Part shown: positions 18,261 to 63,368 of the stretch, in pieces
Numbering within the stretch: position 1 is the first letter of the stretch
How the letters are laid out: each line of letters begins with the position of its first letter
Virus record (IMG/VR): IMGVR_UViG_3300004369_000005
Location: 28,121 to 92,120 of that record
Source of the DNA: a virus
Reading direction: 5' to 3' (one strand)
DNA length: 64,000 bases
Made by a program: the position numbers and the translations under genes
The notes under the pieces: generated by a model
Seen by the model: only the letters and a program-made list of their open reading frames with translations
Told to the model about the DNA's origin: nothing
The model's database searches: none

Positions 18261-18264
18261 TTAC

Positions 18265-20453: not shown

Positions 20454-20476
20454 TTAGACACAGCACGGGATGTCTT

Positions 20477-20483
20477 TATTTAT
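20477..20483 (-). promoter_or_regulatory. late promoter (ATAAATA) upstream of gp25
   Basis: TATTTAT on the + strand about 24 nt upstream of the gp25 ATG. Confidence 0.6.
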
Positions 20484-20699
20484 TCACTCGTGCCAACGCT
20501 CTACAAAATCATCAAAACCACCCGCTCCTCCACAAGGACGCTCAAGGCGGTCTTCGGGAAGTGGATATAGTTCTTCCTTCATCTTTGATCTACGACGCTT
20601 TGCAGCGGCATCTAGAAGGCGATCACTGTCAGTTTCAGTGATGAGTGTCATACCTTCCTCAATAAATTCTTCGCTTTTGTCTACAGGAAATAATCCCAT
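20484..20699 (-). CDS. hypothetical cyanophage protein
   Basis: ORF track 20484..20735; probable start MGLFPVDKSEEF at 20699, just after the upstream stop. Confidence 0.65.
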   Translation of the reverse strand: MGLFPVDKSEEFIEEGMTLITETDSDRLLDAAAKRRRSKMKEELYPLPEDRLERPCGGAGGFDDFVERWHE

Positions 20700-20701
20700 G
20701 T

Positions 20702-21205: not shown

Positions 21206-21768
21206 CGTTCGATAATCATGTTGAAGGACAAGATAATTCTTTCCTTATCGCTCTGATTCACTTCAGTATAGTGATTACAGGCAGCAGGGAAAATAATTAG
21301 AGAACCTTCAGTAATCTCATCGGGTTGATGTGTCATTGTCAATCCTTTCATGAAATCTCCAAAGGGAGAGACAAATGTTGTTGGGGTATGAACTTCTGGA
21401 TCATACTCAATAAACAAAACAGCATTATACCCAATAGAACCATGGTTATGTACTGTATGGTTCATGCCATAGATTGACTTTTCAAACCACCACCACTGAG
21501 GAATAATACTAGTACATCCAACAGCATCACCAAAACGATTGATATCGCTTTCGATAATATCAACGACTGGTTGGAAACTCTCTTTTTCTTCTTTGTTGTA
21601 GTTTGTAAGCACGTTATCTTTTAAGGATAACTCTTTCTGCTTATACAGTTCAAGGAGTTTTGGTTTTTTAATTTCCCAGTCCTGAATCTGCAACTTGAAG
21701 ATTGGAACTGAGAACATTGGATATGCTTTGACATCCTCCTCGACTGCTGGAGTCGAGACCTCACTCAT
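21202..21768 (-). CDS. 2OG-Fe(II) oxygenase (TIGR02466-like)
   Basis: HTVHNHG...EGSLIIFPAACNHYTEVNQSDKERIILSFN. Confidence 0.8.
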   Translation of the reverse strand: MSEVSTPAVEEDVKAYPMFSVPIFKLQIQDWEIKKPKLLELYKQKELSLKDNVLTNYNKEEKESFQPVVDIIESDINRFGDAVGCTSIIPQWWWFEKSIYGMNHTVHNHGSIGYNAVLFIEYDPEVHTPTTFVSPFGDFMKGLTMTHQPDEITEGSLIIFPAACNHYTEVNQSDKERIILSFNMIIER

Positions 21769-21911
21769 CGTCCTTGACCTCTGTAACGCTTCTTAGCGCC
21801 ATTACGACTGGTAGCAGAATATTTTGTGTTCTTGCTGCTTCCTTGACGTGTGGTTTTGGGTTGCGACTCAATAATCTTCTTACCGCTAAGACCAACTTTT
21901 GCTCGTGCCAT
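21765..21911 (-). CDS. small very basic protein (48 aa; not in ORF track)
   Basis: MARAKVGLSGKKIIESQPKTTRQGSSKNTKYSATSRNGAKKRYRGQGR; its stop overlaps the next ATG (ATGA). Confidence 0.75.
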   Translation of the reverse strand: MARAKVGLSGKKIIESQPKTTRQGSSKNTKYSATSRNGAKKRYRGQGR

Positions 21912-21941
21912 AATTAATTTTTAATTGACTTACTTATTTTA

Positions 21942-22280
21942 CTAGATAGGTCCTTGACTGTCAACTGTTACAGTTAATGCACCAGCAGACGCTACAATTC
22001 CTGCAGGACCAACAGGAGAGGTTAGAAGACTTCCAATGACTGCCATCGGTGTTCCATTCACCATAACGGTTGGAGAACCCGTGGAGATCACGTCACTATG
22101 CAAGTCTGGTGGTATAGGAAGTGCCGCAAAATGTGGTAAAGTAGTATCACCTACCTTATGAACGTTCCTGCCGTTAATAATAACATTAGGAGATGCACTA
22201 ATATATCCAACAGGAGACCAAGGACCATGACCTGTAGTCATATCCCATGGAGTATATAACGCGGGAGTATTAGATAACAT
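21942..22280 (-). CDS. PAAR-repeat spike tip protein (gp5.4-like)
   Basis: DMTTGHG...SPNVIINGRNVHKVGD...H...STGSPTVMVNGTPMAVIG. Confidence 0.8.
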   Translation of the reverse strand: MLSNTPALYTPWDMTTGHGPWSPVGYISASPNVIINGRNVHKVGDTTLPHFAALPIPPDLHSDVISTGSPTVMVNGTPMAVIGSLLTSPVGPAGIVASAGALTVTVDSQGPI

Positions 22281-23136
22281 TGAGTGGTACAGGAACCTTT
22301 GGAGTATTTATTCCGTACTCTAACCTCTTAATCGCCGTGTCCTGATCGTTCTGTACGGTCATATGCGCTGTAGAAAGAAAAGTGCCCGCGCTACTAACAA
22401 TCGTAATGTCAAAGAACACTCTTAACTTCATAATGTCACTAGGTTTGTAACTAATAATGTCGGAGCAACGCTTTAACCACCCCTCCATAACTGGAGCATC
22501 ATACATCTTCGCATCTGCAAACGTTAAAGGATAAAAACTCTCGGCGCTTATGCTGCTAGGATACTTCCTCTTTAACATCGAAGGATCAAACAATTCCCCC
22601 TCTGCCTCTAACTTCTCAATCTTTTCTAAAGTCTCATAATACACCCCATCCCCAGAAATCTTGACAATGGCATTCGGTAACCTCAGTAACCATTCCCTAT
22701 CATGAAAGTTACGTTCACTGAAATACCCCGAAATCGTCACCAGAGGCGCTGCACCAGTCGCAAACTCACTGTTGAATACAAAGGGTTCATTATACAGTGG
22801 AGCGACCCACAGGGGACTCACAGGCACCTCAAATTCAGTGTCAAAACTTCTGGTGGTGTCGAATGAAGGACGAGGTTCCTCCAAAATGCAGTAAGATGGA
22901 CCAGTCACTGACATACTGGTGATGACCTCGTTAGGCAGTGTTGGATATGCTTCTATCGTTAGTGAAAAACTTTGATAGGGTTTCACATACGTCGGTTCTG
23001 CGTCTGGAATGATATCTACGGTCGGTTTGAACTCATAGTCCCCTGCAGGTAGTCCAAGCAACTTTAAGGACCTTGGAGCGGTTGCTGGGAGGGGATAAAA
23101 CCCTACCTCGATCTCATCCGTGAATATCTCTGCCAT
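22270..23136 (-). CDS. hypothetical protein (probably structural)
   Basis: 288-aa ORF overlapping or abutting its neighbours in a late operon. Confidence 0.7.
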   Translation of the reverse strand: MAEIFTDEIEVGFYPLPATAPRSLKLLGLPAGDYEFKPTVDIIPDAEPTYVKPYQSFSLTIEAYPTLPNEVITSMSVTGPSYCILEEPRPSFDTTRSFDTEFEVPVSPLWVAPLYNEPFVFNSEFATGAAPLVTISGYFSERNFHDREWLLRLPNAIVKISGDGVYYETLEKIEKLEAEGELFDPSMLKRKYPSSISAESFYPLTFADAKMYDAPVMEGWLKRCSDIISYKPSDIMKLRVFFDITIVSSAGTFLSTAHMTVQNDQDTAIKRLEYGINTPKVPVPLNVI

Positions 23137-23366
23137 TAGACTGACTGCGCGACTCTTAGCAAATCTTTCTTAATCCCTTCAACATTATTGTGAAGATAAT
23201 CTAAAGTATCTGACAGTGTTTCGTACTCACTCGCCTCAGGGCGGCGGTACGCTAATGTCGGTCTCTCCAAGTTCGATACTCGCACTTCCAGACTCTCCAA
23301 TCTCTGCAACAGCACTAGGAGTTTTTCCTCCAAGCTTGTCTGTTGCTGCTCTGACGACGTTTCCAT
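23136..23366 (-). CDS. hypothetical coiled-coil protein
   Basis: LQRLESLEVRVSNLERP...YETLSDTLDYLHNNVEGIK; stop coupled to the next ATG. Confidence 0.65.
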   Translation of the reverse strand: METSSEQQQTSLEEKLLVLLQRLESLEVRVSNLERPTLAYRRPEASEYETLSDTLDYLHNNVEGIKKDLLRVAQSV

Positions 23367-23481
23367 TATTTGAATCTCCTCTCATGAATGATTCCGCTGC
23401 CTTCGTCTCGAACTCGTCGCAAAATGCATCAAAGTTACTCAGAATGGCATCGAAGTTTTCAAAATCAACTTTCTGGGGCAT
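23236..23481 (-). CDS. hypothetical acidic protein
   Basis: NFDAILSNFDAFCDEFETKAAE; first ORF downstream of the late promoter at 23524. Confidence 0.6.
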   Translation of the reverse strand: MPQKVDFENFDAILSNFDAFCDEFETKAAESFMRGDSNNGNVVRAATDKLGGKTPSAVAEIGESGSASIELGETDISVPPP

Positions 23482-23523
23482 TTTTTTTCTGGCGGAATTT
23501 TTTATAACGGGACTTTACCAAAA

Positions 23524-23530
23524 TATTTAT
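23524..23530 (-). promoter_or_regulatory. late promoter (ATAAATA)
   Basis: TATTTAT on the + strand between the terminator and the ORF starting at 23481. Confidence 0.55.
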
Positions 23531-23602
23531 CGGTCGTCTGGATACTTTTGTAGGTTAGGGGAGTCATGCGTTTTTGGAATCGCTTGGCGACCCGACTAGT
23601 AC

Positions 23603-23631
23603 AAAAAAACCCCCTAACAACTGCCAGGGGG
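23603..23631 (-). terminator. Rho-independent terminator closing the early region
   Basis: Minus strand CCCCCTGGCA-GT-TGTTAGGGGG followed by T7. Confidence 0.8.
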
Positions 23632-23642
23632 CGGGGTCTGTG

Positions 23643-23843
23643 CTAGGATGCTGTGGCGACTAGTCGTCGGCACTGCCTCTCAATCTGTCGCAATGCGTTC
23701 ACGTCGCTAGGACTGCTGCTGCATGTGCTGATGATGCCTAGGCGTTCGTGCTTGTATTTGCGGTGCTTTCGATCACTGGTGAGGATGAACCCATAGCGAG
23801 CGTGGATGGCGTCCGCTTCTCTGGTGAAGGACTTCTTAGACAT
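23643..23843 (-). CDS. HicA-like small basic protein
   Basis: YGF...RKHRKYKH...STCSSSPSDVNALRQIERQCRR pattern, similar to HicA-fold proteins. Confidence 0.5.
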   Translation of the reverse strand: MSKKSFTREADAIHARYGFILTSDRKHRKYKHERLGIISTCSSSPSDVNALRQIERQCRRLVATAS

Positions 23844-23846
23844 GGG

Positions 23847-24023
23847 TCAGGCGAAGGTGGGGAGACGGTCGATCGCTTCTTGCGCGTGATGCTCTGCAAA
23901 GACCCCAGCGATGAGGGCGGCGCTGTGTGCTGTGCCCTGTAGGGTGTTGCTGCTGACCCATCCTGTCTGGCGGGTGCTGATGTCAGAGGCGAGGCGGAAG
24001 CAGGTGGGGTTGCGCTTTGTCAT
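23847..24023 (-). CDS. hypothetical early protein (58 aa; not in ORF track)
   Basis: MTKRNPTCFRLASDISTRQTGWVSSN...; lies directly after the promoter motif at 24046. Confidence 0.6.
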   Translation of the reverse strand: MTKRNPTCFRLASDISTRQTGWVSSNTLQGTAHSAALIAGVFAEHHAQEAIDRLPTFA

Positions 24024-24045
24024 GCTGTGCTGTGTTGATGTGGTT

Positions 24046-24104
24046 AGTCTACAGGCAAGGGGGGCAGCAGAGACCCCCCTAGTGTACGGTTCAGAGATCG
24101 ACCA
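24046..24104 (-). promoter_or_regulatory. early promoter (degenerate palindrome + TAGACT -10)
   Basis: GTGTACGGTT-CAGA-GATCG located 41 nt from the -10 box. Confidence 0.5.
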
Positions 24105-24363
24105 TCATGGCATTCATCTCATCGGCATCGATGGCGCACGAATCCCAACGCACCCCATCCTTGGTTTGCACGAGGTGGCGACCGATCATGCCGTCAGTCA
24201 TGGCACGAACGAACTTATCCCAAGGGGTCTCATCGTTGCCGCAGAACTCAACACACGCCTTAGCGGTGTTGTAGAGGAATTCATCGTTGCCAATCCAGAG
24301 GGCAGCGTTCCAGGTTTCGTAGGTCGCCCAACCGTTGTAGGTGCTGAGGGTGGAAGCGGTCAT
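24091..24363 (-). CDS. conserved phage early protein (YNGWxxYETW family)
   Basis: MTASTLSTYNGWATYETWNAALWIGNDEFLY; start placed after the promoter at 24386. Confidence 0.75.
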   Translation of the reverse strand: MTASTLSTYNGWATYETWNAALWIGNDEFLYNTAKACVEFCGNDETPWDKFVRAMTDGMIGRHLVQTKDGVRWDSCAIDADEMNAMMVDL

Positions 24364-47729: not shown

Positions 47730-50700
47730 TCAGAGTTCCGTGAGCCACCAACCGCGTAGGTTAGATGGGATAGATCTTTCATCTTCTGCACCAGGAGCAT
47801 CAGTTGGACCGACATAAATCAATCCGAAGGATGCGTTTCTGGTCTGTACGATTAGTTCTCCACTATCCCAAGCAACAGAATTGAATCCGCTACCTTCTTT
47901 AATGGTAGAACCTGTGATGTCACCCTGAACTGCAACTGACAAACCACCAACCTTGAGTGCTCTAATGACTAACTGAGAGTCATAAGATAGGTTTCCACTG
48001 CATTCAATGAATCTAATCATATCACCAGTTTCAGCATAATCTGGTAGATACAGAACCATATTGGTGCCTGCAGGATTATTTAGAATGTAGTTGTTATTAG
48101 GTTGTAATGGGGATCCTTGTGTCTGACCGATACCTGTAGCAGATTGTTCTACGTAAGTATATCTACGACCACCATTTCTAGTGAAGTAACGCTGAATACC
48201 GAAGGTATCGATAGAACCATCTTGATAGATCTTAAAGTCTCTTGGACCTTCAGTTCCACCAGTTCCAGCATTACCAATGTTATCGATATGGAAGATTGGT
48301 GTAGTTGCATCACCAAACGCATCGCCATCATTAGCAATTAATTTGCCTCTGACATAGAGTTGTTCTCCAACATCAACAGATCCCGTGTCACCATATACTT
48401 TAAACTTAAGTTCTTCAGTGCAGTTACCCCATGCTTCACAATTATCTTCGAAGACGTTGATGTCACCATGAATGAAGGCATGACCCTTGAGGAACATACC
48501 ACCCTTCCTAGTCTTGGCGTCTAGAATTGCACCATCAGCGGGGTGATCGTCATCGTTAGCAACGTTGAAGATTAGAGTCTCTCCATCGCAACCATACATT
48601 CTCAATTCACCACTGTATAGTTCTAAAGCATCATGAATAATAGTTGTACCACCACCAAATGTTGCGGTATAGAAATCGCGAGGATGATCTCCAATAAAAT
48701 CAGGATCAAGAACATTAAGTGCTTGCTGAACTGATTGTGTTGCTTTAGATAGTCTTACAGAATATGCAGAATCTTGACCGTCAATACTATCTGGATAGAA
48801 CCATTCAGTAGTTACAGCAGATGTAATAGGATCAGTAGTGCTAATTCTAAAGAAGTGTGGGGAGTCTAGTTTGTTACCAACTATTCTAGAATCTGCTAGT
48901 TTAACCTGAATTAGGGAAGCAAGGTATGATGGGTTAGCAGGTGTTCTATTAGTTGCAGGGATGTCCTCAATTAGTTTGCTGCTTAACTTATACTTGTAGA
49001 TCTTAACAACTGTTGCTCCACCACCAGTGAAGTTAAGTTTACTAGTTCCTTCAAGTCCTCTACCACCATTTGGATAAGAAGAAGCAGGATAATCAGCATT
49101 GTAGATTGTAGGCAGATAACCCTGACCGCCAGAAGTATAAGGATTATCGGTGATAATCATGATCTCACCGCGACCTGATGATACTCCAGCACCTTCATAA
49201 ACTGCGATCATGTCGCCCTTCTGGAAGACGCTGATGTCATTAACAGGAATGTTGACATCATCTACTGTAAATCCTACAGAAGTTGTAGTAATTGGACCAC
49301 CAATGTTAAGGGTGAACTTACTAAATCTGTAACCATAAGCAATACTATTCTCAATAGTATGGTTGACTGGAGTAGAACTCCACCATCCACCATGTGCGAA
49401 TACTGCACCTTGTGTAGTACCAATAACAGTGTCACCATTACAGACATTAACGTCAAATGTGGTGCCATACTTGTTATTGATATAGAGGTGGTTATCAAGT
49501 GATGGATCGGGACTTGGATATGTAAAGTCTCTATCGCAGAGACCATTCAAGTTCAGTGTTCCGTTAACATTGAGTAGTGATGTGCTTGTACCATCACCAA
49601 TGGTTACATCACCAGTAGTAGAATCAACAACGAATACATCATTTGCAGTTCCACCAGAACAGTCAGAAGAAATTCTGAACTTAATTTTCTCTTGACTTAG
49701 AGGACTTTGAATCTGTAGAACTTCACCAACGTCATATGTCGTTGGATCTGGTGCTTGTGGTGTGCTGTCACGACCCAAGATAATATAATCATTGAGTTTT
49801 AGACTGCTACCAATTCTGGAGAGATATACATTAGTGATAGACTGCTGGTCGAATGGAATATCCTGAGTAGTCCAAGTAGCATCAAACTGTACGTTACACT
49901 TGTAAACAGAAGTTCTATCTGGGTGATCGTTTCTTACGCCAGTAAATGTACCAAATGGTTGTCTTTCAACAACAATGTAGTATGGTCTGACATTAATTCT
50001 AGGTGTAGAAACAACCTTAACAAATTCAACATGAGTTGAAATTGATGTCGCAGAACCTGTAACATATGTGATTCCAACAACACCGTAGTTATCAATATTA
50101 GCACCAGTGTTTGATCGCTGGAACAACTGGAACTTAACACCTGCCTGCTGTGCTGCAACAGGAATGTTAACTTCCATCTTAACGAACTGTCTGTTCGTAT
50201 CAGCATCCATAAACTGAACGAACTGTGGTGTTGTTACCAGATCTCTAACACCAGCTGGGACAATATCACCAATAGTAACCCATGTATTGCCATCATCAAG
50301 AGAGTATCTTAGTTGTAGTGCTTCATTTGCCAATGCAGGAGAAACGATATCTGGGAATTCTCCACCATTGCTATCAGTTCCGACGTGAACGTCGAATTCC
50401 ATCTTGGAAATAGCACCAGTAGATAGGAATGATCCATCAACTGCATCAAGTGTTACGTAACGAGCTCCACTGCCTTTGAAGTGGATGTATGTCTGACCTG
50501 TGTTAAATCCGCCACTGGATCCTATACCAGGACCAGAGTTATCAAAGAGAACACCCTGATAATCATTAACAAATGATGCTGTTGGATCTGCTTGGTCGAT
50601 ATCAGCAGTGTCTAGAGCAACACGGGACTCGCCAACACCTTCAGGAGAATCAATCAATAGAATGTCATTCTCACGGAAGTATGACTCACCATCAACTAGT

Positions 50701-53700
50701 GGAGCATTCAATAGTGGTAGGTAATACTGATTACCAGTTAGTTCAGGTAGCTCCTGAGGTTCAACCTGTGGGTTGCCACCAATTTCAGTGATTTCATTCT
50801 GATATTGAATACCACCCCAGTTTGAACTACCAACAGTATCAATCTCGTTATATCCTGCTTCTCCAGTCGTCAAACGTGCTACTGTAATAATATCAACGTT
50901 GTTGTTGAATAGACCGTCACCAAGTTCACCAGATAGGTGCTCCATATTGGAAGAACCAGATCTGTTTCTGAATGCAGAGAATGTGAATGCATCCAGACCA
51001 CCACAGAGAACGAGGTTGGAGTTAACTTCAGCAGTTGCATTGACAACCAAGTTGTTTCTAATAGTGGTTGTACCACCCTGACCTGCCATAGTCAGGTTAG
51101 AAACGTTAGTAGCGAAGTTGAGGATGTTGGTTACAGAGTTACCACCAAAGAAGTCAACTGTACCAGCAGTAGATGTTAGTGTTAGACTATCAGTAAGTCC
51201 TCTTCTGGTGATAGGACCACCATTAACATCAGCACCAACACCAAGGATAATATCACCAGCAACCTTAAATGACTTGGTGTCAATCGTTGTTGTTGATAGA
51301 GTCTCAGAAGGTTGTGCGTATGCACCACCAATGACTACCTTAGAAATATTAGCGTTGTTGTCATCAGGAGTATGACCGATGTAGATGTTACTGTGTAGTG
51401 ACTTATTACCAAGGAAGAAGAACTGATCTCCTTCTACATCATCACCAAGGAAGAATCTAGACTGTACCTTGTTGGCGTTACCAATGTAAATGTCTTGAGA
51501 TGACGTAGTGGTGTTACCAATTGTGATTAGTTCAGCACCATTTGCAAGTGCAAGGGTGTTAGTGTTATCAACGATTGTCGCTGCAGTTACATTGTTAGCA
51601 ATGTTAACTGTACCAACGAATGTAGCATCATCAATCACATTGAAGATACCAGTTGTAATACCAGTTCTGATCTCAGCAGTATCAGTTCCATCTACACCAG
51701 GATGGTTGTAGACTTCAATGTCTCTGTGGAATCTTACATCTTCAGTGAAACGAGCATCACCTTGAACTACCAGTGCTCTGTCTAGTTCTGCATTGGTGAT
51801 GTTAACACCAACCTTACCATAGTTATCTGGTCTGCCATTTTCAGAAGAAGCAGTAGTTAGTGTAGAAACACGGAATACTGCTTGCTTAGCATCAATAAAG
51901 GAGACGATAGTAGAACGCTGTGCGTTGTTGAGGAGATCATCAGAATAACCAACAACAAATGCATCAGATACTTTATCTACAGTACGTGTAGCGAATGAAG
52001 CGTTGTTGATCCAACTATCCTGAGTCGTCTTACGACCAGTGATGAATGTTGTACCAATAACTTCAAGGTTTGCACGAGGATCAGTGTTCTTAGGTTGTAC
52101 CCAAGCAGTATCATATGCCTCATGATCGACTCTGTTAAGAGTGTTAATACCAAGTTTGAAGTCACCCCAGGTATCACTATCAGTTCTCATTACTTCAGAA
52201 CCGATTACACCATATTCCTTCCACTTGTTCTCCGCATAGAACATTCTTCCATTTGGAGATGGAGCAGCATTGAAATTAATGATGTCTGTATCCCAGTCGT
52301 AACTACCAACAGGGATGCTTACCTGACTGTTAACAGGAACAATCTCGATAAAGAGTTGATTACTCTGACCGTTGAATGCATACTCCGCATTGTTGATGAT
52401 CTTCCAGTTTCCGATGAAAGATGCATATCTAACAATGTTCTCAAGCTTAATAGTTGAGGTAGGAGTAATTGGTGGGGTAAAGTCGTCAAGTTTAATTGGG
52501 TTGTTTGCTGGATCGATAAAGGTGATCGTAGCAATGTAGGTGGAACCAGATTGCTCGATTTCAATAGCATCAATGTTAGCATTATCAATTTCAGTGAAGA
52601 TGTTTGCATAGATCCAACCAAGAGAACCAGTCTTATTAACTGCATCTCCCTTGAGAAGCATATCTCCTGGTTCTGGTAGAACACCACCAGAGATAGTAAC
52701 GATAGTTTCACCACCTTGCTGCGTTTCTTGTGGTACACCACCATATACAACATACTGCATGATGTTAATGGAAGTTCCACCATTAGCAATGGTGAGTCCC
52801 TGGTTTGGTGCTACATTACCATTTGAAACTGCACTACCTGCAGGTGCATGAATTAGAGACTTGTAACCAAGTCCTTTACCGCGTCTATTATATTCAAATA
52901 CAGCAGAAGAAACTGTGTTCTGACCGATGCGAATATGTCCGCCTTCACCAATACCATCAATCTGATCGAAGTTGAGGTATTGATCTTGTGGTTGACCGTT
53001 AGCACCAGTTGAATTTACTAGAGAGTAAATTAGTAGTGGAGTTCCTTGCTGAACGAGTTGATTGTCAGGAACGTTGATTTCAACAGGGGAGAGGAATCTG
53101 CTGACTAGCTGACCGTTGTCATCACCAACAACTGTGATGTTCTTATTGAACGTTACAGGTGTATCAAAGGTAGTAACGAGTTGTCCGATTACGTCATCCT
53201 CGTCTCCATCATCGGCAAGAACTGCTCTATCGATGAAGGTTTCTTCACCAGTGATAGCATTGATTCTTCTGTTACCGATGTAGAGGTCACCCTGGGAGTT
53301 AATACCCGTGTAGAAGACGATACCAGCATCTTGCTTCTTCGACTGTGCGTAGAAGTCCTCTTCGGGTTCTAGGACGATCTCCTGACGGGCAGGAAGACCT
53401 GTTGAGTAGTTACCAGGACCGAAACCAAGGTATTCAAACGTGTGGTTACCAGCACGAGCGATAGATGGTCTACGGAGTTCAACATAGTAACGCTGATCTG
53501 AGAGAACTGTGCTATCACCAGCAATAGGAATCAAGCGATCTTCCGAACCTGAAGTTGCATTACCTTCCTGTGCCTGAATTCTGTTATCAATTACATTACC
53601 ATCAAAATCACTAGTAGTATTAGTATACTTGTTACTGATGAATGCTGGTTGATGTAGTAGATCCGTAACGAGTTCTCTAGTTACAGAGTGCTTGGTATCA

Positions 53701-56700
53701 TTAACAGTAACCTTACCATGAATATAGTTGTCAGCAGCAGAGAATGCCTGAGGTGGATCAATTAGAGCACTGTAGTATGCTTTTTCTGCCTCACTTGTAC
53801 CAGAACTCTTAAACCAGAGAGGATCGTTTCTGTAGTTTAGAGGATACAGTTTACCAACTGGTTGTGAGAACTTAAACTTCTGGAAGTTACCACCAGCACC
53901 AGCACCTTGTGGGAATGGTGAGATGTTACCGCGCAAGCAAGTTAGATAGTAGATACCATCTTGCTGACCTGGGATTCTCTTCTGAAGTTCTTTACTATCA
54001 AAGATGTAGAAGGTGTCTTCAATGATACCTGCATCTTCGACAGATGCAACATAGTATTCAATACCAGTGTCATCTTGGATTGTATCACCAGGAGTAATGG
54101 TATAAACGTTAGCGCCGTTTTGCTTGTAATAATACTCTGGGAAATTTTTTCGGATATGTGTCTTCAGAGGTAGCGATTTACCCATATCCTGGTCTTCCAG
54201 CATATCAGCAAACACAGTTGTGTCGCCTTGTGTCTGAGAGAATCTAGTGTTGTAATACTCACTATACTCTAGGGAAGCAGTGCCCTTAGCACCACTGATA
54301 CCCTTGATGATGAGATAGTGATCTCCACCAACACTATAGTATCCATGGATAAATGCACTACCTGAAGAGTTACCAGCAAATGTTACCCTGTTTGCACTAG
54401 GACCACTGGATAGACTTTGAGTTTTATTAGTGTTGAAAGCACCACCCTGAGGAGAAGAAATCTTGACAGTTGTAAAGATTTCATTTCTCAAACCACTGAA
54501 GTTGACAGTATCAACACCATGATCGAATACCGTAATTTCTAGATACTTAATTTCTGGATCTAGTGGATCTTCAACATAACGACCAGACTGGATGCTAGCA
54601 GCAATACCAGAAGAGAATCTGGCGACACTGGTATAGTTTGTATCCTGTGGTTCACCTGTTAAAGGTCTTCTAAATGGATCATATCTTTCCTCTTCTTTGA
54701 GGGTATCATCTAGATCAAAGTCACGCTGAGTGAAACCAATGTATTCAGCAGGTTGCTGTGGGTTGATGAAACGTGCTCCATATACGTTACCAGATACAGG
54801 CTTGAGGAGTAGTTTCTGTGGTACTAACTTACGAGTATCGTCAGTTCTTGTCTTAATAACAAATCCGTTGATAGGATCTCTAGCGTTCTCAAGGTACTTA
54901 GGAATGACATAACGTAGTTTATAAGTTCTCTCGTCCGCTTCACGAGTATCACTAATACGCTCATACCATGTATCAGTAGTGCTTTGCTTACCAGCAAAGT
55001 CACCTTGGTGAATTCTATAGAAGATCTCCTGCTGAACGATATCAGTGTCGCCAGATAGAGCACCAGTAATCTTATCCTTAACGTTAAGATACCACTTACC
55101 ACCCTCAGCATCAGAGCTAGAGAATGTTGGATCGAAGCGCATTGGACTGAGCTTCTTGTTAGCAAATACTCTGAATGGTTTTCTGCTACCACCAATAGGA
55201 ATATCAAATTGAATTGGATTGACACCACCTTCAGTGTAAGTGCTGACCTGCGCTCTTGCTTCTGCTTCAGTTTTGTGAACTGTGAAGATCTTAGAAGTCT
55301 GATACCTTACATAGAATTCCTTATAAGGATTGATTCTACCATAATTAGGATCGTTGGAGTTAGTTACAGCAACATCAGGATCGTTAATAAACTGAGATGC
55401 AACTGCAGGTAATTCACTACCTTCTACTTCTCTAAAGAATACTTTCTGAATAGTAGTAGCAGAGTTTGGTTTATCGAAGATATGTGCGATGTCAGACTCA
55501 ATACCACCCAAAACAGTATCAGTTAGAGTACACTGATAGTTGTGTAGATCATATTTGTCATCGATGATGAACTGATAGAGATCGATCTCTACATCTGGAT
55601 CAATAGATTCTGTCTCAGATGCATAGATGTAGATACCTGCTGCTGCATTCTCCTTAGACGATGCAAGCATCAACTTGGTTGCATCACTACCGTTGAAGTA
55701 TGTTGTTCCAGAATAGTCAACAGGTTGTGTTGCTCTACCAGGAGCAATTACATAGTATACTTCATTAGTATCAAAACCATTTGGTAGTCTAACCAGACGC
55801 TTGTCAACATCTACATACTCGTTACGATCTGGATCAAAGCGAGGACGTGGTACAAGTCTGACAGGAGTTCCAGTCTCGAAGTTGTGTGCTTCAGGAGATC
55901 CAGTACCTGTCTTATCAATAGTAAATACAGTCGCTCTAGATGCTAGTAGTGAGGTATTGAAGGTTGCTTCCTGTCTGGGAATAGTAGGAACTTCATTACC
56001 ATTAGCATCAGTGTAGGTTAGACCAGTGTTGATGATAGTAGTGATGTTCTGAATAAGAACTTCAATAGCATCTGCAACAGCAGCACACTCGCGTTGTGTA
56101 GGTGATGTAGTGGTGTCCTGAATAACATCAGGATTTTCTCCTTCTGGTCCAACAACTACAGTCTCAGGGAGAGTGTCAGCCCATGCAGGAGTCTCGAACT
56201 TAAAGTGTAGATTAACAGTACCAGTTGCACCTACAGGAGTTGCATTCTGTGTCTTACCAAAATCTAGTCTAGATCCTCTTACACCCAGTTCAATAAACTG
56301 ATCGTCAATAATATTCTTAACGAAAGTATTTTCTGGAATATTAGTATAGGTAGGTACAGCAGTTGATTGTAGAAGACCGTTGACATATGGAGTAGGAGAT
56401 GACTGATATTCAGTAACACTCATGCCAATGACAATACCTCTAGTGTCACCAACGTTGACTCGTGCTGCTGTTGCTGGTGCAGAAGTAATTTCACAGTTAT
56501 AAGCAACAAAGTCAAAATTACGCATTGCTGCAGTTGCCAACTGACCGACATAGTTCCATGCATCGGTTGTTTCTACTGCTTCTCCATCGATGTAATCTAG
56601 TTGAGCTCCAACAAAGTATGCTTCACCTGCCTGAATGCTGTTGATGTTACCACCATAACGTAGGTCATTGACGACTGCATCAACGATATAAGAAACGTCT

Positions 56701-59700
56701 CTAAAGCACTTAGATGCCTCTGCATTGGTGATAAAGTCTCCGCTATTAACAGGAGGTAGATCATCAATTGAACCCTCTGCAATGGCATCCATGAAGATGT
56801 CAAAGAGAGTTTCAATAGTAGAACGAACGTTAGCACAATCCCACTCACCAGTGCTGAGATCAGGAAGATCTTGGATGTTACCAGCGTAGAGAGCATCACA
56901 AACAATACCAGTTAGAGTATCGATTGTCTGTAGAACGTCAGAACAATTGCCTAATCTATACTCTTTAGGTTGTGTGATTGCTGCGGCAGCAGGATATGAA
57001 TGACGCTGCTTATAACCATCACGAGCACAAGTAAAGGTCAGAGCATTAGGTTGTACTCTAATACTTGTTCCAGTGCTAATGCTATGTGCTCCAATTGTTA
57101 CTATAACATCACCTGTTTCAGGATCATATGTAGCATTAGTTGGTGTATATGTTGTGTTGACAGATGCGGGTGCTTGAACTTCAACAGTCTTAGGAGTTAC
57201 AGCAGTGATAATCATCTGCTGACCTGAGTTAGAATCAGATGTTCTAGGATAGGTATGCTCGGTAGCATAGTTATCCATAGCACATCTAAAGGTAAAGCTG
57301 TTATCAACAAACCTTACAGTGTTTGATGTAGTTAGACCATGTGGAGCACCAAAGTATAGTGTTACCTTACCAGTAGATGTGTTATAAACAGCATTGCCTG
57401 GCGTATATGTTACACCGTTATTATCTACAACAGCATCATTAGCGACACTAACAAAGCGATGATCGTAATCACCACCAACAACAATACTATCTGCAAGTGC
57501 AGTAACAAAACTATGTTCGTAAACTAGATTGTTAGATGCACCAACGTTGAAAGTAATAGTGTTTGCAGTTGTTGCAGTGATACTAGTTGCAGTCTCATAT
57601 GTTGGATCTGGAGTTGCTCCTGGGAAGGATGCCTCAGCAGTTACAGTACCAACACCAGTGCTGGTTGTACCGATTGCATCATCAAGGATGCCAAACAGGT
57701 TGTAGATAGCAATAGCAACAGACTGACACTTAGGTAGGAGACTTGTCTCGCCATTGCTGATGTCAGAGTCCCAATCAGTTACGATAGTATAATCGATGAA
57801 CTGCTCTTGTGCTGGGGTTGGAGACCAGTTAGTAGGAGTTATAACCTCGTTACGCATTACTGCAATAGCAAGATCTCTTACTTCTTGGAATACTTTCTTC
57901 GCTTCATCACGCTCAGCATCAATGAATGTCTCAACTTTCCATGCAGTTCCATCCCACGCCCATCTGATTCCCTCTTCAGTATAGAATCCAGAAGTAGGAC
58001 CAGTTTGTGTATTACCAACAACTGGTGCTGTTGGGAAGTCTAAACGGAAGTCTGCTGGATAGAACTCATTAGAGATATAGATGTTAGCAGCTCTTAGAGT
58101 CTTGATGTTTCCACCAAACTTAACGTCCCACATTACTTGTTCTAGGACGCTATACACATCATCCAGACAATCCTGCTTAGTGTTACCCTCGGAAGGAGTG
58201 TACTGGTTGTATGTAACAAGCATACGCTGATATGCTTCTTCTGCAATAAATTCCTTGTTAGCAAGTACAAGGTTATATGCATCAGCGTGAATGTCTGAGA
58301 AGACGGCAGGATCACCCTTCTGGTCTAGAGTTAGAGCAGGAAGACCAGCAATTTCTCTGACATAGTATTGATTGTTGACTGCACGGTTCATCAAATCAGC
58401 AGCACGTTTGAATGCTGTGATAGAAGGACCGACTTCGAAGTCAACACCATTTGCTAGCAAAGTGTTTGCATTTGCAAAGTATTCTTTAGTTGCAGCGATG
58501 GTATACTCGTTACCACCGAACCAGAGATCCTGTGCGATAGCATCAACAACATGACCGATGTCTCTACGGCACTTAGCGTTACCAGTAGTTCCAAACTCAG
58601 TGTTGTATAGTCCAGTGTTGACTACAGGAAGATCATTTAGGTTCTGATCGTTGATTGCATCTACAACGTAGCTTACTAGGTTATCAATGTAAGAAACAAC
58701 ATCTTGACATGCATTAGGAGAAGTTACAGGAACGTCATTACCAGAACCAACCTCATAGTTAGGAGCACCAGGAGTTACACCTAGATCCTTATAATATAGT
58801 TCATTGCGAATTGCCTTCGCCATGTACTCTTCTGCTTCTTGGAAAGCAAGAATTGCTTCATCTTTCTCAGGAGTTACAATGCCATTAGTAATAGGTACGC
58901 CTGATCCATCGAAGTATTGTTCGATGAACTTAACTGTGTGACTGTTACCTTTGTGGAACATGTCAACAGAGATAGCATCGATAAAGTAACCGATGTCACG
59001 AGCACACTTGGCAGCGCCTGCAGGATATGATCCTTTGTTGAGAGGTGTGGGTCCAATGTTCTCCCAGTCTACCTCATCATCTGGACCACGTAGAAGAGAA
59101 CCTAGATTGTTGTTGCCGAAGATTCCATCAACAATACTCCAGAGGTTATCAATGGTAGACTGAACGTCGCTGCAAAGATACTCATTAAGGTGATTGTCAG
59201 TATTAGCACCAAAAGTAATGCAGTTGTTTATTGCACTAACAAAACTATGTGGGTATACATCAGCAGGATCGCTAGCACCTACGTTTACTGTGATCGTGTC
59301 AGCAGTAACAGCATCAACACGAATATACTTACCAGCAGCAGGGTCAGTAGCACGAGGATAAGCAGTTACTTGAGTGTTGCCATCCATGGTGCAGGTGAAT
59401 GATAGTCCACCAGTTGCAATCTGAATATGATCGCCAACCTTTAGATCGTGGTTAGCAATAGTAAGTACAGAATTGCCAGTAGCTCCATCATAAGTTGCAT
59501 TATGTGGTGTGAAAGATCTTACAATCTGACCGTAATCAGAACCAGGAGCATTGTCAGGGGTTACCTGTAGATTCTTAAAGTACAGTTGATTGGAAACTGC
59601 CTTCATCATCATATCTCTTGCCTTCTGGAAGATGGCACGACTCTCTAGTAGTTCACCATTCAAACCAGCGGTGATCTGAGTGTTCTCATCTTGGAAGTAT

Positions 59701-62700
59701 TCTGCAGCAAATCTATAAGAATACTCATTACCAGACATAAACATGTCTAGTGAAATTGCTTCGATGAAATAGTTAATATCTCTTAGACACTTATTCTCAC
59801 CAGCACCAGAATTAGCATTGTCTAGAGGGAAGTTTGCTAGTTCACCTAGACCAAACTCTAGAATCTGAGTAACAGTGAAAGTTAAAGTATCGATAGCAGA
59901 CTGTACGTTAGCACAGGATGCTGGGTTATCATTGTTACCTAGGTTGCTACCAGGAGATCCAACACCACCAGGGTTCTGACCTGGGGTTGGGTCGCCAGTT
60001 ACACTATTATCTTCATATACAGCACCAGGAAGATTGTTGGTGATAGCAAGCTTCATGGTGTCTCTTGCTCTGTTAAATGCTACCTTAGCAGCAGCAATCT
60101 CACCAGGATCGTTGATACCATCAGCAATGTACTGACCTGTGCCCTCATCAAAATACTCAGCACCAAATAGTCTAGAATACTTGTTAAATCCTCTGAATAG
60201 GTCAAGAGAAACAGCATCGATGAAGTGACCGATGTCACGCTTACACTTAAACTCAGTAGAATCAGATGCTGGTGTAGCAGACTGCTGCATGATATTCCAT
60301 GCATCATCAATGATGACCTGTCTGTTGTTCTGAATCAAGCGATATGCATCAGCAAATCTAGACTGCGAATCAGTCTGAGTATCACCAGGGAAGTAGAAGT
60401 CTGGGTTCTGAATTGCAACCTGTGCTAGAGCACGATCAGCAATCTCTTCCTTGTTCTTAACAATTAGACGGTATGCATCTGCAAGTCTAGATCTGGAATT
60501 TGTTTGAGCGTCACCAGGGAAGTAGAAATCTGTACGCTCTGCAGCAATCTTAGCGAGTGCTCTATCAGTAATTTCTTTACTGTTACGACGAATAAGTCTG
60601 AATGCATCAGCATAACGTGACTCAGCAGTCTCGTTTAGTTCACCAGGAATATAGAAGTCTGGATGATAAACAGAAATTTCTGCTAGTGCTGCGTCAAGGA
60701 TAAACTGACGGTTAGCAACAATACGGTTGCGAGCATCCTTATAACGACCAGCAGGATCTTCTTTATTGCTGCTATCAACGGTAACATTCTTACTATCAAA
60801 GATCTGATTACCATCAGCATCTAGTGATTGAGAAGAACCATTGCTTCCTGGGTTAATACCATATGGAGCCAGAATGCTGTTAGGATCAGTATCCCAGATA
60901 TCTGCTTTAACATCTAACAGGTTAGCAATTGCTTTCTTACACAGATCTCTTGCTCTTCTGTATGCAAACAGTGCTGCTTCTTCTTCTCCTACTAAACCAT
61001 TCTCTAGTGGAACCTGTTGTCCGAAGGTAGGTGAGTTTGGATCTTCATCTAGAACAAAGTAGAACTTAGTAGCATCAATGATGTTTCTGTTACCACCATC
61101 TCTAAGGTCTTCTGCGATAGCATCAACAATGAAACCAATGTCACGCTTGCACTTAGCTCCGTTAGTATTACCACCGTTTCCATCATAGTTAGGATATGCA
61201 ATCAGCATCGATGCATATGCTTCCTCAACAATCTGGGAACGGTTGTCAAGAATCAGGTTACGTGCGTCGAAGTAACGGTTAGCAGCAGGATTTAGACCAG
61301 GGTTAACATAAGGAATGTTCTGGAGTCTAGGATACTTCTCAAAGATATAACCAAAGACTTCCTCCTGGATCATGCGACGGTTGCTTTCGATTAGGTTAGC
61401 AGCGTCGATGTTAGTGGAGTTAAGATTAAACTCCTGATCTCCAGTTGGATTGAGTACAGATCCTTTAGCAATATACTTAACAAAACCAGTTGGTTCTAGT
61501 GTTGCTTGATACTCACTGATGTTATTGAGACTATCAAGTTTGACATATAGTTTATCTTCTGTCTTACCACCAATTCTATAACCACCAATGGTAGCAGCAG
61601 GACGATTGAGTGGATTGTCTAGATCAGTACCACCAAGGTATAATCTAGTGCGGTTCTCTTGTCCGTTAAGTTGCTCTCTGCTACCTTGAACGTCAATGGT
61701 GTAGTAAAGGACTTTCTCGGTATTTGTCTCACTTGCTTTAACCTGCTGAGGAGGAATAATGTCAGTGATATAACCTGCCTTATCTTGGTTAAAGGAGAAT
61801 CCTTTGAAACCAATAGCATGAAGTGATGTATTACCGAAGTTGGAGTTAGAGTTGGTGATCGACATGTCACCGCCACTTTCCATCAGGAAGTGATCTGCGA
61901 AACCAACAGCGAAGATCGAAACGTTCTGGATGAATGCATCTTCCGAAGCACGAACGTGGAAGTTTCTCCAGTCATCCTTCCAGTAAGAATCACCCTTCGC
62001 GTGATAAGGAACTGTAGCAAATGCGTCTACTAGTGATGCTTGGTTCCAAGTGTTAGCATACTCATCATAGCGGATGAATGCTCTGTCGTCTCTCTGGAGC
62101 GAAACACCCGTGTACTGAGCGATAACCATGGATTTAAATCCAGTGGCTTTTAGACCATTCGCCCAGATACCACAAATACCCCAAACAGAACGGATTGAAA
62201 CGTTGAAGACATATGGAGATGCAGACTCAACAGAATCAACTTCCGCGAGAACCTGTGCGTTCTGACCTAGTGCAGGAGAAGAATCTACGTTAACAATCTT
62301 CTCTGAGAAAATTCCGTTACCGATACCAGATGCAACGAAAGGAACACGATAGGTGAACTTACGAGGATCATTCTCATCAATATCATAGATGTCCCAGAAA
62401 CCTTCAATCTCGTCATCAATCTCAGTATTAGAGATAGCAACAAACTGACCTGCAAAGTATCCGTGGTCTACCTTAGTAGTAACCTCAATCTGTGTTGTAG
62501 ATGCAGGGATTGTGTTATCTGAAGTTGCATCAACGAACTTCAAAGATTCAATAACACGAGAGTCAGATAGAGGTCCAACGATTCTGTTCTCTTGAACGTT
62601 GAAATCGAATTCGCCAGGTTGGTTGATCTCTGGTTGATATCTCTCAAATGCTTTAGCAATCTTTCTGTAAAAGAGTTGCAGTTCTTCTTTATCTGCGTAC

Positions 62701-63368
62701 TCGAATACAGTTAGTTTGTGGTGAGAGAAGTTAGGTGGAGTTAGTCTACTAAAGTCAGTAGGGTCAAAGTAGACTTGACCTCCCTTATTTGGATCATAGA
62801 GAGGAGATTCTGCAGTAGTCTGACCGTCCTTAATAGTAAACTGCCAGAAGTAGCAACCACCAGTTACGTTAAAGATAGCAGAACGAGGAACAGTTACCGA
62901 CGCAGGGTCAGGAACATAGAGAGGACGAATTGTGGTACGACGAAGGTCATAACCTACAAGTGATGAACCCCTAGGGATAATAGCACCACCCTCAGTGTTG
63001 TTGAACTTCCAAAGGATGTTATTTACATCACTAATGTCTAGGTTAGGGTCAGCACCCCAAGCATTAGTACCCTGATCGAATAGGAATTGTTCGATTTCAC
63101 TGGTGTCTTCTACACCAGGACGGTTGTCAATATAGTGAATACCAGGCATCAGCATAATGCTGAACTGGTCGAACCTATCGTTCGAAGGACCAGGAGTATA
63201 AGAATACCTAGCAACTTCCAAGAAAGCACGCTGAATACTCTTAAATGGAGTTACAGGTGAGTTACCTCTGTTAGATAACGAATCTGTTGCGTTAAAATCG
63301 TCTGGTGAAACATAAAGATACTTACCAGTTTTTGAGCTGATAAGGTTATCTAAACGTGTTAAAGGCAT
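47730..63368 (-). CDS. giant virion structural / long tail fibre protein (5212 aa) with seven nested phycobiliprotein-like domains
   Basis: N-terminus [29 protein letters not shown]...[11 protein letters not shown], typical of cyanomyovirus giant fibre proteins; late promoter upstream; followed by tail-collar genes. Confidence 0.8.
   Translation of the reverse strand: [5212 protein letters not shown]
56030..61420 (-). repeat. array of seven phycobiliprotein-like helical domains (split and nested)
   Basis: 7 x DAxxLIxxN, 7 x (K)CxRD-like...G(G)N and 7 x CxxV segments. Confidence 0.75.

What the first reader, a model, noticed from the sequence alone, without database searches (positions are those of the whole stretch)
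56085..61406. Perfectly nested 'Russian-doll' domain architecture
Seen: each domain has three parts, N (DAxxLIxxN), E (CxRD-like) and H (CxxV), and there are exactly seven of each. Order along the protein: N1 61404, N2 61266, E 61149, N3 60735, N4 60606, N5 60477, N6 60348, E 60243, H 59913, E 59787, H 59172, E 59004, H 58707, E 58569, N7 58281, E 58167, H 57726, H 56943, H 56835, E 56706, H 56085. This parses like balanced brackets: N1[N2 E2[N3[N4[N5[N6 E6 H6]E5 H5]E4 H4]E3[N7 E7 H7]H3]H2]E1 H1. N3 to N6 are spaced exactly 129 bp (43 aa) apart. Inference: whole domains were repeatedly inserted into the N-E and E-H loops of one another, so the chain runs out and back as a branched stalk. Such splitting would tend to hide the domains from standard HMM annotation.
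Basis: partly seen in the sequence, partly recalled or inferred. Interest (0 to 1): 0.85.

Follow-up and report, generated by a model that had tools for sequence, protein, structure and literature searches.

The report
Nested phycobiliprotein-fold domains in cyanophage fibre
A 5,212-residue tail-fibre protein of a marine T4-like cyanophage contains seven copies of its host's light-harvesting (phycobiliprotein) fold inserted one inside another up to six deep, so the chain most likely runs out along a forked stalk and back; I found no paper describing this.

Summary
All 21 motifs lie in frame in one ORF (window 47730-63368, minus strand). Profile HMMs find exactly seven N, seven E and seven H in it, and no others.

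N, E and H correspond to helices A/B, E (Cys-x-Arg-Asp) and H of the phycobiliprotein beta fold (AF2 models against PDB: Z 14-17.6, rmsd 2.0-2.4 Å over about 131 residues).

Evidence for nesting:
- **Census.** The grammar S→N S E S H S fits 11 architectures of 1 to 12 domains, up to 10 deep. The 13- and 15-domain relatives fit once sub-threshold H helices are allowed. Shuffled strings almost never parse.
- **Covariation.** In 42 orthologs the nested pairing ranks 1st to 3rd of 5,040 mappings. The sequence-neighbour (linear) pairings show no consistent signal.
- **Fragment complementation.** With residues 831-2167 left out, the two flanks are predicted to bind: ipSAE 0.88, best control 0.00. 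N1 contacts G1 and H2 contacts E2.
- **Clean insertion.** A relative without the nest aligns across it, so the nest is one insertion.

No coordinates were available, so pairing in D3-D5 rests on covariation, the census and AF2 confidence. Pairing within one chain cannot be told from pairing between chains.

This scan found the same architecture earlier on other cyanophage DNA. The closest precedent is the nested SI3 insertion of cyanobacterial RNA polymerase.

The parts
47730..63368 (-). Giant ORF, 5,212 aa, tail-fibre type (phrog_4527 'short tail fiber', phrog_529 'tail fiber'); host protein of the nest
   Evidence: orthologs annotated tail protein / short tail fibre in S-WAM2 and S-RSM4
56019..61418 (-). 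Whole nest, aa 651-2450: seven phycobiliprotein-fold domains D1-D7 plus beta-rich inserts; a single insertion relative to nest-less homologs
   Evidence: P0186 aligns to aa 1-629 and aa 2460-3436
61326..61418 (-). N1 (aa 651-681), helix A/B piece of the outermost domain D1
   Evidence: contacts G1, E1, H1; top covarying partners are aa 2222, 2238, 2436-2440
61185..61283 (-). N2 (aa 696-728) of D2
   Evidence: PF00502, 27.2 bits, together with E2
60915..61154 (-). E2-F2-G2 (aa 739-818) of D2
60654..60752 (-). N3 (aa 873-905) of D3
60528..60620 (-). N4 (aa 917-947) of D4
   Evidence: (pLDDT 91-93)
60396..60494 (-). N5 (aa 959-991) of D5
   Evidence: pLDDT 88-94; top partners lie in E5 and G5
59850..60365 (-). 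D6 (aa 1002-1173), innermost and contiguous: N6-E6-G6-H6, the tip of the main branch
   Evidence: phycobiliprotein beta fold, Z 14.4-16.2, rmsd 2.0-2.3 A over 131 aa
59583..59792 (-). E5-G5 (aa 1193-1262) of D5
59199..59501 (-). Beta-rich insert in the G-H loop of D5 (about aa 1290-1390)
   Evidence: strands at model 373-475
59103..59174 (-). H5 (aa 1399-1422) of D5
58638..59009 (-). E4-G4-H4 (aa 1454-1577) of D4
58365..58574 (-). E3-G3 (aa 1599-1668) of D3
   Evidence: G3 1657/1661 covary with H3 2154/2150
57660..58295 (-). D7 (aa 1692-1903), contiguous side-branch domain inserted in the E-H interval of D3; E7 reads C-L-D-D instead of C-x-R-D
56964..57656 (-). About three beta-rich repeats (aa 1905-2135) between H7 and H3
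   Evidence: read from the sequence; internal blastp repeats
56877..56948 (-). H3 (aa 2141-2164) of D3
56769..56840 (-). H2 (aa 2177-2200) of D2
   Evidence: aa 2192 touches aa 767; aa 2193 covaries with aa 800, 804 and 722
56511..56711 (-). E1-F1-G1 (aa 2220-2286) of D1
56109..56501 (-). Beta-rich insert in the G-H loop of D1 (about aa 2290-2420)
   Evidence: homologous part of the L051 model; touches N1
56019..56090 (-). H1 (aa 2427-2450) of D1, closing the nest

Best explanation
Residues about 651-2450 of the fibre protein are seven phycobiliprotein-fold (globin-like) domains joined by recursive domain insertion. Each domain has three sequence pieces: N (helices A/B), E-F-G, and H. Other whole domains sit in its B-E loop (the N-E interval) or in its E-H interval, mostly the G-H loop. 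The parse is D1[D2[D3[D4[D5[D6]]] and D7 in D3]]. N1-N5 therefore leave the base one after another, D6 folds as a normal contiguous domain at the tip, and the returning chain supplies E-G-H to D5, D4 and D3. It then forms the side branch D7 plus beta repeats, and closes H3, H2 and finally E1-H1.

Both ends of the 1,800-residue excursion meet at one point of the host protein. The whole nest is thus itself one insert between the conserved N-terminal domain and the C-terminal fibre body.

Status of each step:
- Shown: motif positions, the grammar and its conservation, the fold of the contiguous domains, and the clean insertion.
- Supported by prediction and covariation: pairing of the distant pieces.
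- Inferred: a rigid, forked stalk whose length changes by adding or removing whole N-E-H units without disturbing the flanks.
- Inferred: folding that must proceed from tip to base. N1 waits for about 1,540 further residues before its partner helices are made, which may need a chaperone.
For: (1) HMM census. At the HMM threshold, 93 of 121 homologs have N=E=H and all 93 parse. The apparent 5-5-4 and 4-4-3 classes carry a degenerate H helix that the HMM misses. The parseable architectures number 11, with 1, 2, 3 (two kinds), 4 (two kinds), 5, 6, 7, 9 and 12 domains and depth up to 10. Two complete proteins that fall short at the HMM threshold also fit: P0143 becomes 1-1-1 and P0160 becomes 5-5-5 once degenerate H helices read by eye are counted. 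The 13- and 15-domain proteins need exactly their H deficit of inserted H symbols; 0 of 3,000 shuffles do.
(2) Nulls: 5 of 200,000 and 3 of 3,432.
(3) Covariation, using 61 orthologs of which 42 were kept. For N_i against core_j the nested map ranks 1st to 3rd of 5,040. For the split domains D1, D3, D4 and D5 alone it is the best of 24. For H_j against (E+G)_i it is 1st of 5,040. The linear cells H6-E5, H4-E3 and H2-E1 are at or below 0. The top pairs are long-range and helix-like, for example 2150-1661 and 2154-1657, 2193-804, and 654-2238.
(4) Predicted complex of aa 2168-2468 with aa 645-830: ipSAE 0.88, 0.88 and 0.83; best of 3 controls 0.00. That mark was reached by 58 of 80 solved complexes and 2 of 110 mismatched pairs. 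The runs agree in at least 79% of contacts and the partner's pLDDT is at least 74. The least-error pairs join the G1 helix (aa 2273-2282) to N1 (aa 659-674), and aa 2192 (H2) to aa 767 (E2/F2).
(5) AF2 model of aa 912-1590: pTM 0.74 over 679 residues, with the 'orphan' N4 and N5 helices at pLDDT 88-94. AF2 model of the minimal 3-domain homolog L051: N1 at pLDDT 87-89.
(6) The fold of the contiguous domains matches phycobiliprotein beta chains at Z 14-17.6.
(7) The nest-less homolog P0186 aligns to aa 1-629 and aa 2460-3436.
(8) Other nests lie at residue ~95 of the N-terminal domain (P0149, P0173) and in the gp7-like ORF of this same window.
Against: No model coordinates or PAE could be read. 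Every fold search row took the contiguous domain, so no 3-D alignment spans a split domain. For N3 and N4 their own core is only the second-best covariation partner, and N4's strongest pairs are with E5. The covariation alignment is shallow (42 sequences), and MI with APC does not fully remove phylogeny. The complex predictor knows the phycobiliprotein fold, so its pass may reflect likeness to solved structures rather than independent evidence. My own alignments were used, so the tool's calibration counts hold only roughly. Several H helices had to be found by eye below the HMM threshold.
Confidence: 0.75

Rival explanations
1. The same N-E-H pairing forms between chains. In an oligomeric (probably trimeric) fibre, the N helices of one chain complete the E-G-H cores of a neighbouring chain as a domain-swapped zipper, instead of the chain folding back on itself.
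For: Tail fibres are usually trimers (general knowledge). Covariation and the two-chain complex prediction cannot tell intra-chain from inter-chain contacts. The count balance N=E=H holds equally under this reading.
Against: The short linkers favour in-chain closure at the tip: 10-13 aa from N6 to E6, about 10 aa from each N to the next, and 20-32 aa from each H to the next E. The monomer AF2 model of aa 912-1590 is confident as a single chain (pTM 0.74). The nest behaves as one clean insertion whose ends meet.
Confidence: 0.13
2. Linear beads on a string. Each E-F-G core uses the helix about 40 aa upstream (N or H, whichever is there) as its first helix. The extra N helices form a separate helical linker, and the 7/7/7 balance is a coincidence.
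For: Each of the seven E motifs has an N or an H starting 33-56 aa upstream, and N7 sits after E3 where the neighbouring units have an H. This was my first rival before testing.
Against: The balance N=E=H recurs in architectures of 1 to 15 domains. H aligns to phycobiliprotein helix H and N to helices A+B, so they are not equivalent elements. H2, H4 and H6 do not covary with the E that follows them. In the predicted complex, H2 leaves its neighbour E1 and packs on the distant E2/G2.
Confidence: 0.05
3. History only. Whole domains were indeed inserted into one another, which by itself gives a parseable string, but the interrupted host domains no longer fold. Their pieces survive as spacers.
For: The grammar is closed under insertion of intact N-E-H units anywhere, so parseability alone records history and not structure (my analysis of the grammar, context).
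Against: The split pieces are among the most conserved columns; for example the N1 residues are nearly invariant in alignments A1 and A2. They covary with their distant partners. They are predicted to reassemble. Arrays of N and of E-H stay balanced in every architecture seen, from 1 to 15 domains.
Confidence: 0.05

Closest known systems
Phycobiliprotein beta subunits (phycocyanin, phycoerythrin and cryptophyte beta chains; Pfam PF00502)
   Same: The globin-like helices A, B, E, F, G and H match. Contiguous domains superpose at Z 14-17.6, rmsd 2.0-2.4 A over about 131 residues. PF00502 is above its cut-off for N2-E2. A profile of the contiguous domain hits only phycocyanins in the PDB (E = 0.001-0.01). 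The Cys-x-Arg-Asp motif of the Cys-82/84 bilin site is kept in 6 of 7 copies, and the model-to-chain ranges put a second Cys at the start of helix H near beta-153/155.
   Different: These are domains of a virion fibre protein, not free 160-180-aa antenna subunits. They have no X-Y hairpin of their own. Sequence identity to phycobiliproteins is 11-20%. Most copies are split by inserted domains. Bilin binding and alpha-beta/trimer assembly are untested.
SI3 insertion of cyanobacterial RNA polymerase beta' (RpoC2): recursively nested sandwich-barrel hybrid motif domains
   Same: Like-in-like recursive domain insertion (A1-B1-C-B2-A2...), including forks. It is described as a six-level nest of eight domains (PMC13114784; see also PMC11515920).
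   Different: The fold differs (beta sandwich-barrel against all-helical globin-like), and so does the setting (polymerase against virion fibre). Here each domain offers two insertion intervals. Depth is 6 in this protein and reaches 10 in relatives. Copy number varies from 1 to 15 among close relatives.
ApcE (core-membrane linker) PB domain with its PB-loop
   Same: A phycobiliprotein-fold domain interrupted by an inserted segment. This is recalled from memory as a lead and was not tested here.
   Different: It is a single, non-homologous loop insert in a cellular phycobilisome protein, with no recursion.

Membership tests
Phycobiliprotein fold (PF00502) | Sequence match to the family profile above the curated cut-off | tested here: met
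   aa 696-748 scores 27.2 bits against a cut-off of 22.2, covering profile positions 28-84 of 155. The 2,600-aa N-terminal piece (aa 1-2600) scores 61.7 bits. The other six copies fall below the cut-off. The profile of contiguous domains hits only phycocyanins in the PDB, weakly (E = 0.001-0.01).
Phycobiliprotein fold (PF00502) | Globin-like A-B-E-F-G-H helical core superposable on solved phycobiliproteins | tested here: met
   AF2 models: D6 of the window gives Z 14.4-16.2, rmsd 2.0-2.3 A over 131 aa, chain residues 31-172. The inner domain of L051 gives Z 16-17.6. These are predicted models, not experimental structures.
Phycobiliprotein fold (PF00502) | Bilin-attachment Cys with following Arg-Asp on helix E | tested here: met
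   C-x-R-D is present in E1-E6; E7 reads C-L-D-D. C, R and D are invariant in alignment A5.
Phycobiliprotein fold (PF00502) | N-terminal X-Y helical hairpin belonging to each subunit | tested here: not met
   The best-rmsd alignments start at chain residue 31-33. Rows that extend to chain residues 1-7 use helices of the neighbouring domain: N5 in the window model, and the end of G2 plus the linker in the L051 model.
Phycobiliprotein fold (PF00502) | Covalently bound bilin chromophore | not testable with these tools
   This needs spectroscopy, zinc-blot or mass spectrometry of the virion or recombinant protein.
Recursive (nested) domain insertion, as in RNAP SI3 | Discontinuous domains whose pieces on both sides of an insert pack together | tested here: met
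   Predicted only. The flank complex scores ipSAE 0.88 against 0.00 for the best control, with N1-G1 and H2-E2 contacts. Covariation picks the nested map. No experimental structure or readable coordinates were available.
Recursive (nested) domain insertion, as in RNAP SI3 | Insert and host belong to the same domain family | tested here: met
   One HMM each for N, E and H detects all seven copies.
Recursive (nested) domain insertion, as in RNAP SI3 | More than two levels of nesting | tested here: met
   The parse depth is 6 in the window protein (7 counting the host fibre) and 10 in the 12-domain relatives.
Tandem repeat array of contiguous domains | Each unit is contiguous, giving (N-E-H)n in order | tested here: not met
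   Only D6 and D7 are contiguous. Four N lie in a row, followed by E-H units.

The most novel reading that the evidence does not exclude
The nested stalk is a pigmented rod. Each reconstituted domain keeps the Cys-x-Arg-Asp bilin site and a second Cys that aligns near the beta-153/155 site. The phage's own bilin enzymes and its CpeT-type lyase would attach bilins to it; the lyase gene lies about 1.3 kb upstream of the S-WAM2 ortholog. The out-and-back nesting would then hold 7 to 15 chromophore domains in fixed register, giving a light-absorbing or light-sensing virion appendage, or a decoy or adhesin for phycobilisome-related host components.
Probability: 0.15. Interest if true: 0.95.

Novelty: new variant of a known kind. 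Interest (0 to 1): 0.8.

Why it matters
It shows a second, independent way in which nature builds an elongated protein by recursive like-in-like domain insertion, here with an all-helical pigment-protein fold. In relatives the nest is 10 levels deep, more than the six-level record I found in the literature.

The stalk length appears to be adjustable in whole-domain steps, from 1 to 15 copies among related phages, without touching the flanking fibre. That is relevant to host-range evolution of abundant marine cyanophages and to protein design.

It also explains why standard HMM annotation misses six of the seven domains. Pairing a helix with partners more than 1,500 residues away poses a sharp folding problem. 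Finally, the conserved bilin-site residues make it directly testable whether virions carry pigment.

Tried and rejected
Homolog DNA came from the search for related loci instead.
- **Model files.** Structure prediction leaves no coordinate file in /data, so contacts of the single-chain models could not be read.
- **Fold search pdb_via** on both models returned only alignments to the contiguous inner domain. No row spans a split domain, so this route could neither support nor contradict split pairing.
- **Paralog 'mirror-tree' test.** It supported the nested map in P0040 (7 of 5,000 and 18 of 5,000). In the window protein it did so only for N-H (15 of 5,000); N-E was not significant. It was ambiguous in the 12-domain P0054. 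I treat it as weak support only.
- **DP with free insertions.** My first version looped and was replaced by an H-only version.
- **Tandem Repeats Finder** found no DNA repeat in 55900-61500.
- **Literature.** Searches for phycobiliprotein-like domains in phage fibres found nothing.
- **Linear reading.** The reading in which N or H serves as the first helix of the following E was considered first and rejected.
- **Disulfide idea.** I considered a disulfide between the E-Cys and the H-Cys. I think it unlikely, because the homologous beta-82 and beta-153 sites are far apart in phycobiliproteins (from memory; not measured here).


Full report
**The object.** The finding lies inside one minus-strand ORF, window 47730-63368, of 5,212 aa. 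tblastn against phage records finds relatives in 379 records. Almost all are Synechococcus or Prochlorococcus T4-like cyanophages, and the genes are annotated tail protein, short tail fibre or virion structural protein. The best match is S-WAM2, at 55% identity over 99% of the region. PHROGs assign the protein to phrog_4527 (short tail fiber) and phrog_529 (tail fiber).

**Observation.**
N3-N6 are exactly 43 aa apart.
- I built HMMs for N, E and H from the seven copies each and iterated them on 121 homologs. Scanning the whole 5,212-aa protein returns exactly these 21 sites and nothing else.
- A fourth helix, G (A-F-x-x-A-R-D...A-x-x-N), follows each E.
- Trial strings in the language S -> N S E S H S are rare. 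Among random permutations 5 of 200,000 parse. With the E skeleton kept and the N/H labels shuffled, 3 of 3,432 parse.

**What the pieces are.**
- Pfam gives PF00502 (Phycobilisome protein) at aa 696-748, profile positions 28-84 of 155. The score is 27.2 bits for the isolated piece against a cut-off of 22.2.
- I made two AF2 models. One is the minimal three-domain homolog L051 (630 aa, pLDDT 77.8, pTM 0.53). The other is window aa 912-1590 (679 aa, pLDDT 77.7, pTM 0.74).
- In both, the contiguous inner domain superposes on phycobiliprotein beta chains. L051 gives Z 16-17.6 with rmsd 2.2-2.4 A over about 131 residues, and D6 of the window gives Z 14.4-16.2 with rmsd 2.0-2.3 A over about 131 residues. 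The match covers chain residues about 31-172.
- So N is helices A+B, E is helix E with the Cys-x-Arg-Asp of the Cys-82/84 bilin site, and H is helix H. By the model-to-chain ranges, the Cys at the start of helix H falls near beta-153/155.
- A profile of the contiguous domains hits only phycocyanins among PDB sequences, weakly (E = 0.001-0.01).
- N and H are therefore different elements of one fold. This already weakens a reading in which they are interchangeable.

**Comparative test.**
- Of 121 long homologs, 93 have N=E=H at the HMM threshold and all 93 parse.
- The rest are truncated ORFs or lack one or two H. In those classes a degenerate H helix is visible where the grammar requires it, for example a Cys-led helix ending ...IIQAIGTD.
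- With 77 IMG/VR loci and 120 shorter homologs, the parseable architectures number 11. They are NEH, NNEHEH, NNENEHHEH, NNNEHEHEH, two four-domain forms, and five-, six-, seven-, nine- and twelve-domain forms. Depth reaches 10.
- Two complete proteins that fall short at the HMM threshold also fit once degenerate H helices read by eye are counted. P0143 becomes one domain (NEH) and P0160 becomes five.
- The twelve-domain form is ten N, seven E-H, two N, then five E-H.
- The 13- and 15-domain proteins P0092 and P0088 become parseable with exactly as many added H as their count deficit (2 and 4). None of 3,000 shuffles of either string does so.
- Architectures differ from one another by whole contiguous N-E-H units.

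**What the grammar does and does not prove.** The language is exactly the set of strings obtainable by inserting intact N-E-H units anywhere. Parsing therefore demonstrates a history of whole-domain insertion. Physical pairing of the separated pieces needs separate evidence.

**Pairing evidence 1: covariation.**
- I aligned the nest of 61 orthologs with the seven-domain architecture and kept 42 at under 93% identity. I then computed APC-corrected mutual information between motif blocks.
- For N_i against core_j (E+G+H), the nested map ranks 3rd, 2nd and 1st of 5,040 permutations, using the top 5, 10 and 20 pairs. For the split domains D1, D3, D4 and D5 alone it is the best of 24.
- For H_j against (E+G)_i it is the best of 5,040. 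The cells expected under a linear reading score -0.013 (H6-E5), +0.077 (H5-E4), -0.040 (H4-E3) and -0.007 (H2-E1). All seven nested cells are positive, from 0.03 to 0.19.
- Individual top pairs are long-range and helix-like. H3 2150/2154 pairs with G3 1661/1657. H2 2193 pairs with G2 800/804 and N2 722. N1 653/654 pairs with E1 2238 and H1 2436-2440. N5 pairs with E5 1212/1224 and G5 1238-1246.
- N3 and N4 also covary with the next-inner domain (N4 with E5 1211/1215). So the N helices probably touch two neighbouring domains.

**Pairing evidence 2: fragment complementation in silico.**
- I gave complex prediction the two flanks of the nest, each with its own alignment. Chain 1 was aa 2168-2468 (H2, E1, F1, G1, beta insert, H1). 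The partner was aa 645-830 (N1, N2, E2, F2, G2). The 1,337 residues between them were omitted.
- The score was ipSAE 0.88, 0.88 and 0.83, with the best of three controls at 0.00.
- That mark was reached by 58 of 80 solved complexes and 2 of 110 mismatched pairs. These counts hold only roughly here, because my own alignments were used.
- The runs agree in at least 79% of contacts and the partner's pLDDT is at least 74.
- The least-error contacts join chain-1 residues 106-115 (G1, aa 2273-2282) to partner residues 15-30 (N1, aa 659-674). They also join residue 25 (aa 2192, H2) to partner residue 123 (aa 767, E2/F2).
- The interface covers H2, the start of E1, G1 and H1 on one side, and N1, E2/F2 and G2 on the other.
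- H2, although tethered 20 residues from E1, is thus placed on the distant D2. N1 is placed on D1.
- Caveat: the phycobiliprotein fold is solved many times over. The pass may show likeness to that fold rather than independent evidence of binding.

**Pairing evidence 3: model confidence.** In the single-chain model of aa 912-1590, the N4 and N5 helices have no adjacent core in sequence, yet their pLDDT is 88-94. The pTM is 0.74 for 679 residues. That is not expected for loose beads with dangling helices. Coordinates and PAE were not available. Fold search always chose the contiguous domain, so it could not show the split pairing directly.

**The nest as a whole is an insert.**
- P0186 is a complete 2,169-aa relative with no N, E or H motif. 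It aligns to aa 1-629 (51% identity) and then directly to aa 2460-3436.
- The two ends of the 1,830-residue excursion therefore meet at one point of the host protein, as expected if N1 and H1 belong to one folded unit.
- Other lineages carry two- and three-domain nests at a different site, near residue 95 of the N-terminal domain (P0149, P0141, P0173).
- The second giant ORF of this window (gp7-like, 5496-18260 minus) contains N E [N E H] H.

**Mechanism proposed.**
- The parse tree gives a trunk D1-D2-D3. D3 carries two inserts: the branch D4-D5-D6 in its B-E loop, and D7 plus about three beta repeats in its E-H interval.
- The chain runs out through the N helices with a 43-aa period, turns at D6, and returns through the E-G-H cores.
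- Linkers are short: about 10 aa from one N to the next, and 20-32 aa from each H to the next E.
- I infer a rigid forked stalk projecting from the fibre, adjustable in length by whole-domain steps. I also infer folding that closes from tip to base. These two points are inference.
- Whether pairing is within one chain or between chains of an oligomer is open.

**Known relatives and novelty.**
- Recursive like-in-like insertion is documented for the SI3 region of cyanobacterial RNA polymerase beta', at six levels (PMC13114784; PMC11515920).
- I found no paper on phycobiliprotein-fold domains in phage fibres, or on their nesting.
- This scan has met the same architecture in at least 13 other cyanophage genomes, and other first-reader notes cover this genome. 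Those notes agree with what I tested here independently.
- I class the finding as a new variant of a known kind.

Noticed in passing
window 10239-11585 (-), inside ORF 5496-18260: The second giant ORF (gp7-like, 4,255 aa stop-to-stop) holds an independent nest N E [N E H] H. The outer E has Tyr in place of the Cys. The inner H (a Cys-led helix near aa 2595) falls below the HMM threshold.
   Followed up: partly
P0186 versus window ORF aa 1-629 and aa 2460-3436; P0149, P0141 and P0173 at residue ~95: Nest-less relatives exist, in families of about 2,160, 1,850-1,900 and 1,190 aa. In other lineages, nests of 2-3 domains are inserted at a different site, near residue 95 of the N-terminal domain. 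The nest therefore behaves as a movable module.
   Followed up: partly
L078 (S-WAM2 KU686211) 8261-8785 and 10072-24351: In S-WAM2, a CpeT-like chromophore lyase gene lies about 1.3 kb upstream of the orthologous tail protein gene, separated by tRNA genes and two endonuclease genes. The window ends before the equivalent position, so this could not be checked here.
   Followed up: no
window 59199-59501, 56964-57656 and 56109-56501 (-): A beta-rich module of about 80-100 aa, with a conserved F-T-C..D...Y-P-R signature, sits at least four times in E-H intervals: in D5 and about three times between H7 and H3. A further beta-rich insert fills the G-H loop of D1. The module is repeated many more times in relatives such as P0149. 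Its fold was not searched.
   Followed up: no
window 50085-50495 (-), aa 4292-4428: Pfam Reelin_subrepeat-B (PF21471) matches at E = 3.7e-8 in the C-terminal part of the fibre protein.
   Followed up: no
window aa 917-947 versus aa 1211-1215; model m36326a19651b residues 62-76: N helices also covary with the E helix of the next-inner domain. In the model, the second helix of N5 lies where the X/Y helices of a phycobiliprotein lie relative to D6. Neighbouring domains may therefore pack like an alpha-beta phycobiliprotein pair.
   Followed up: partly
P0160 aa 1405-1425: In one relative the inserted domains sit between F and G of the host domain rather than in the G-H loop. The second insertion interval is therefore not a single fixed loop.
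   Followed up: no
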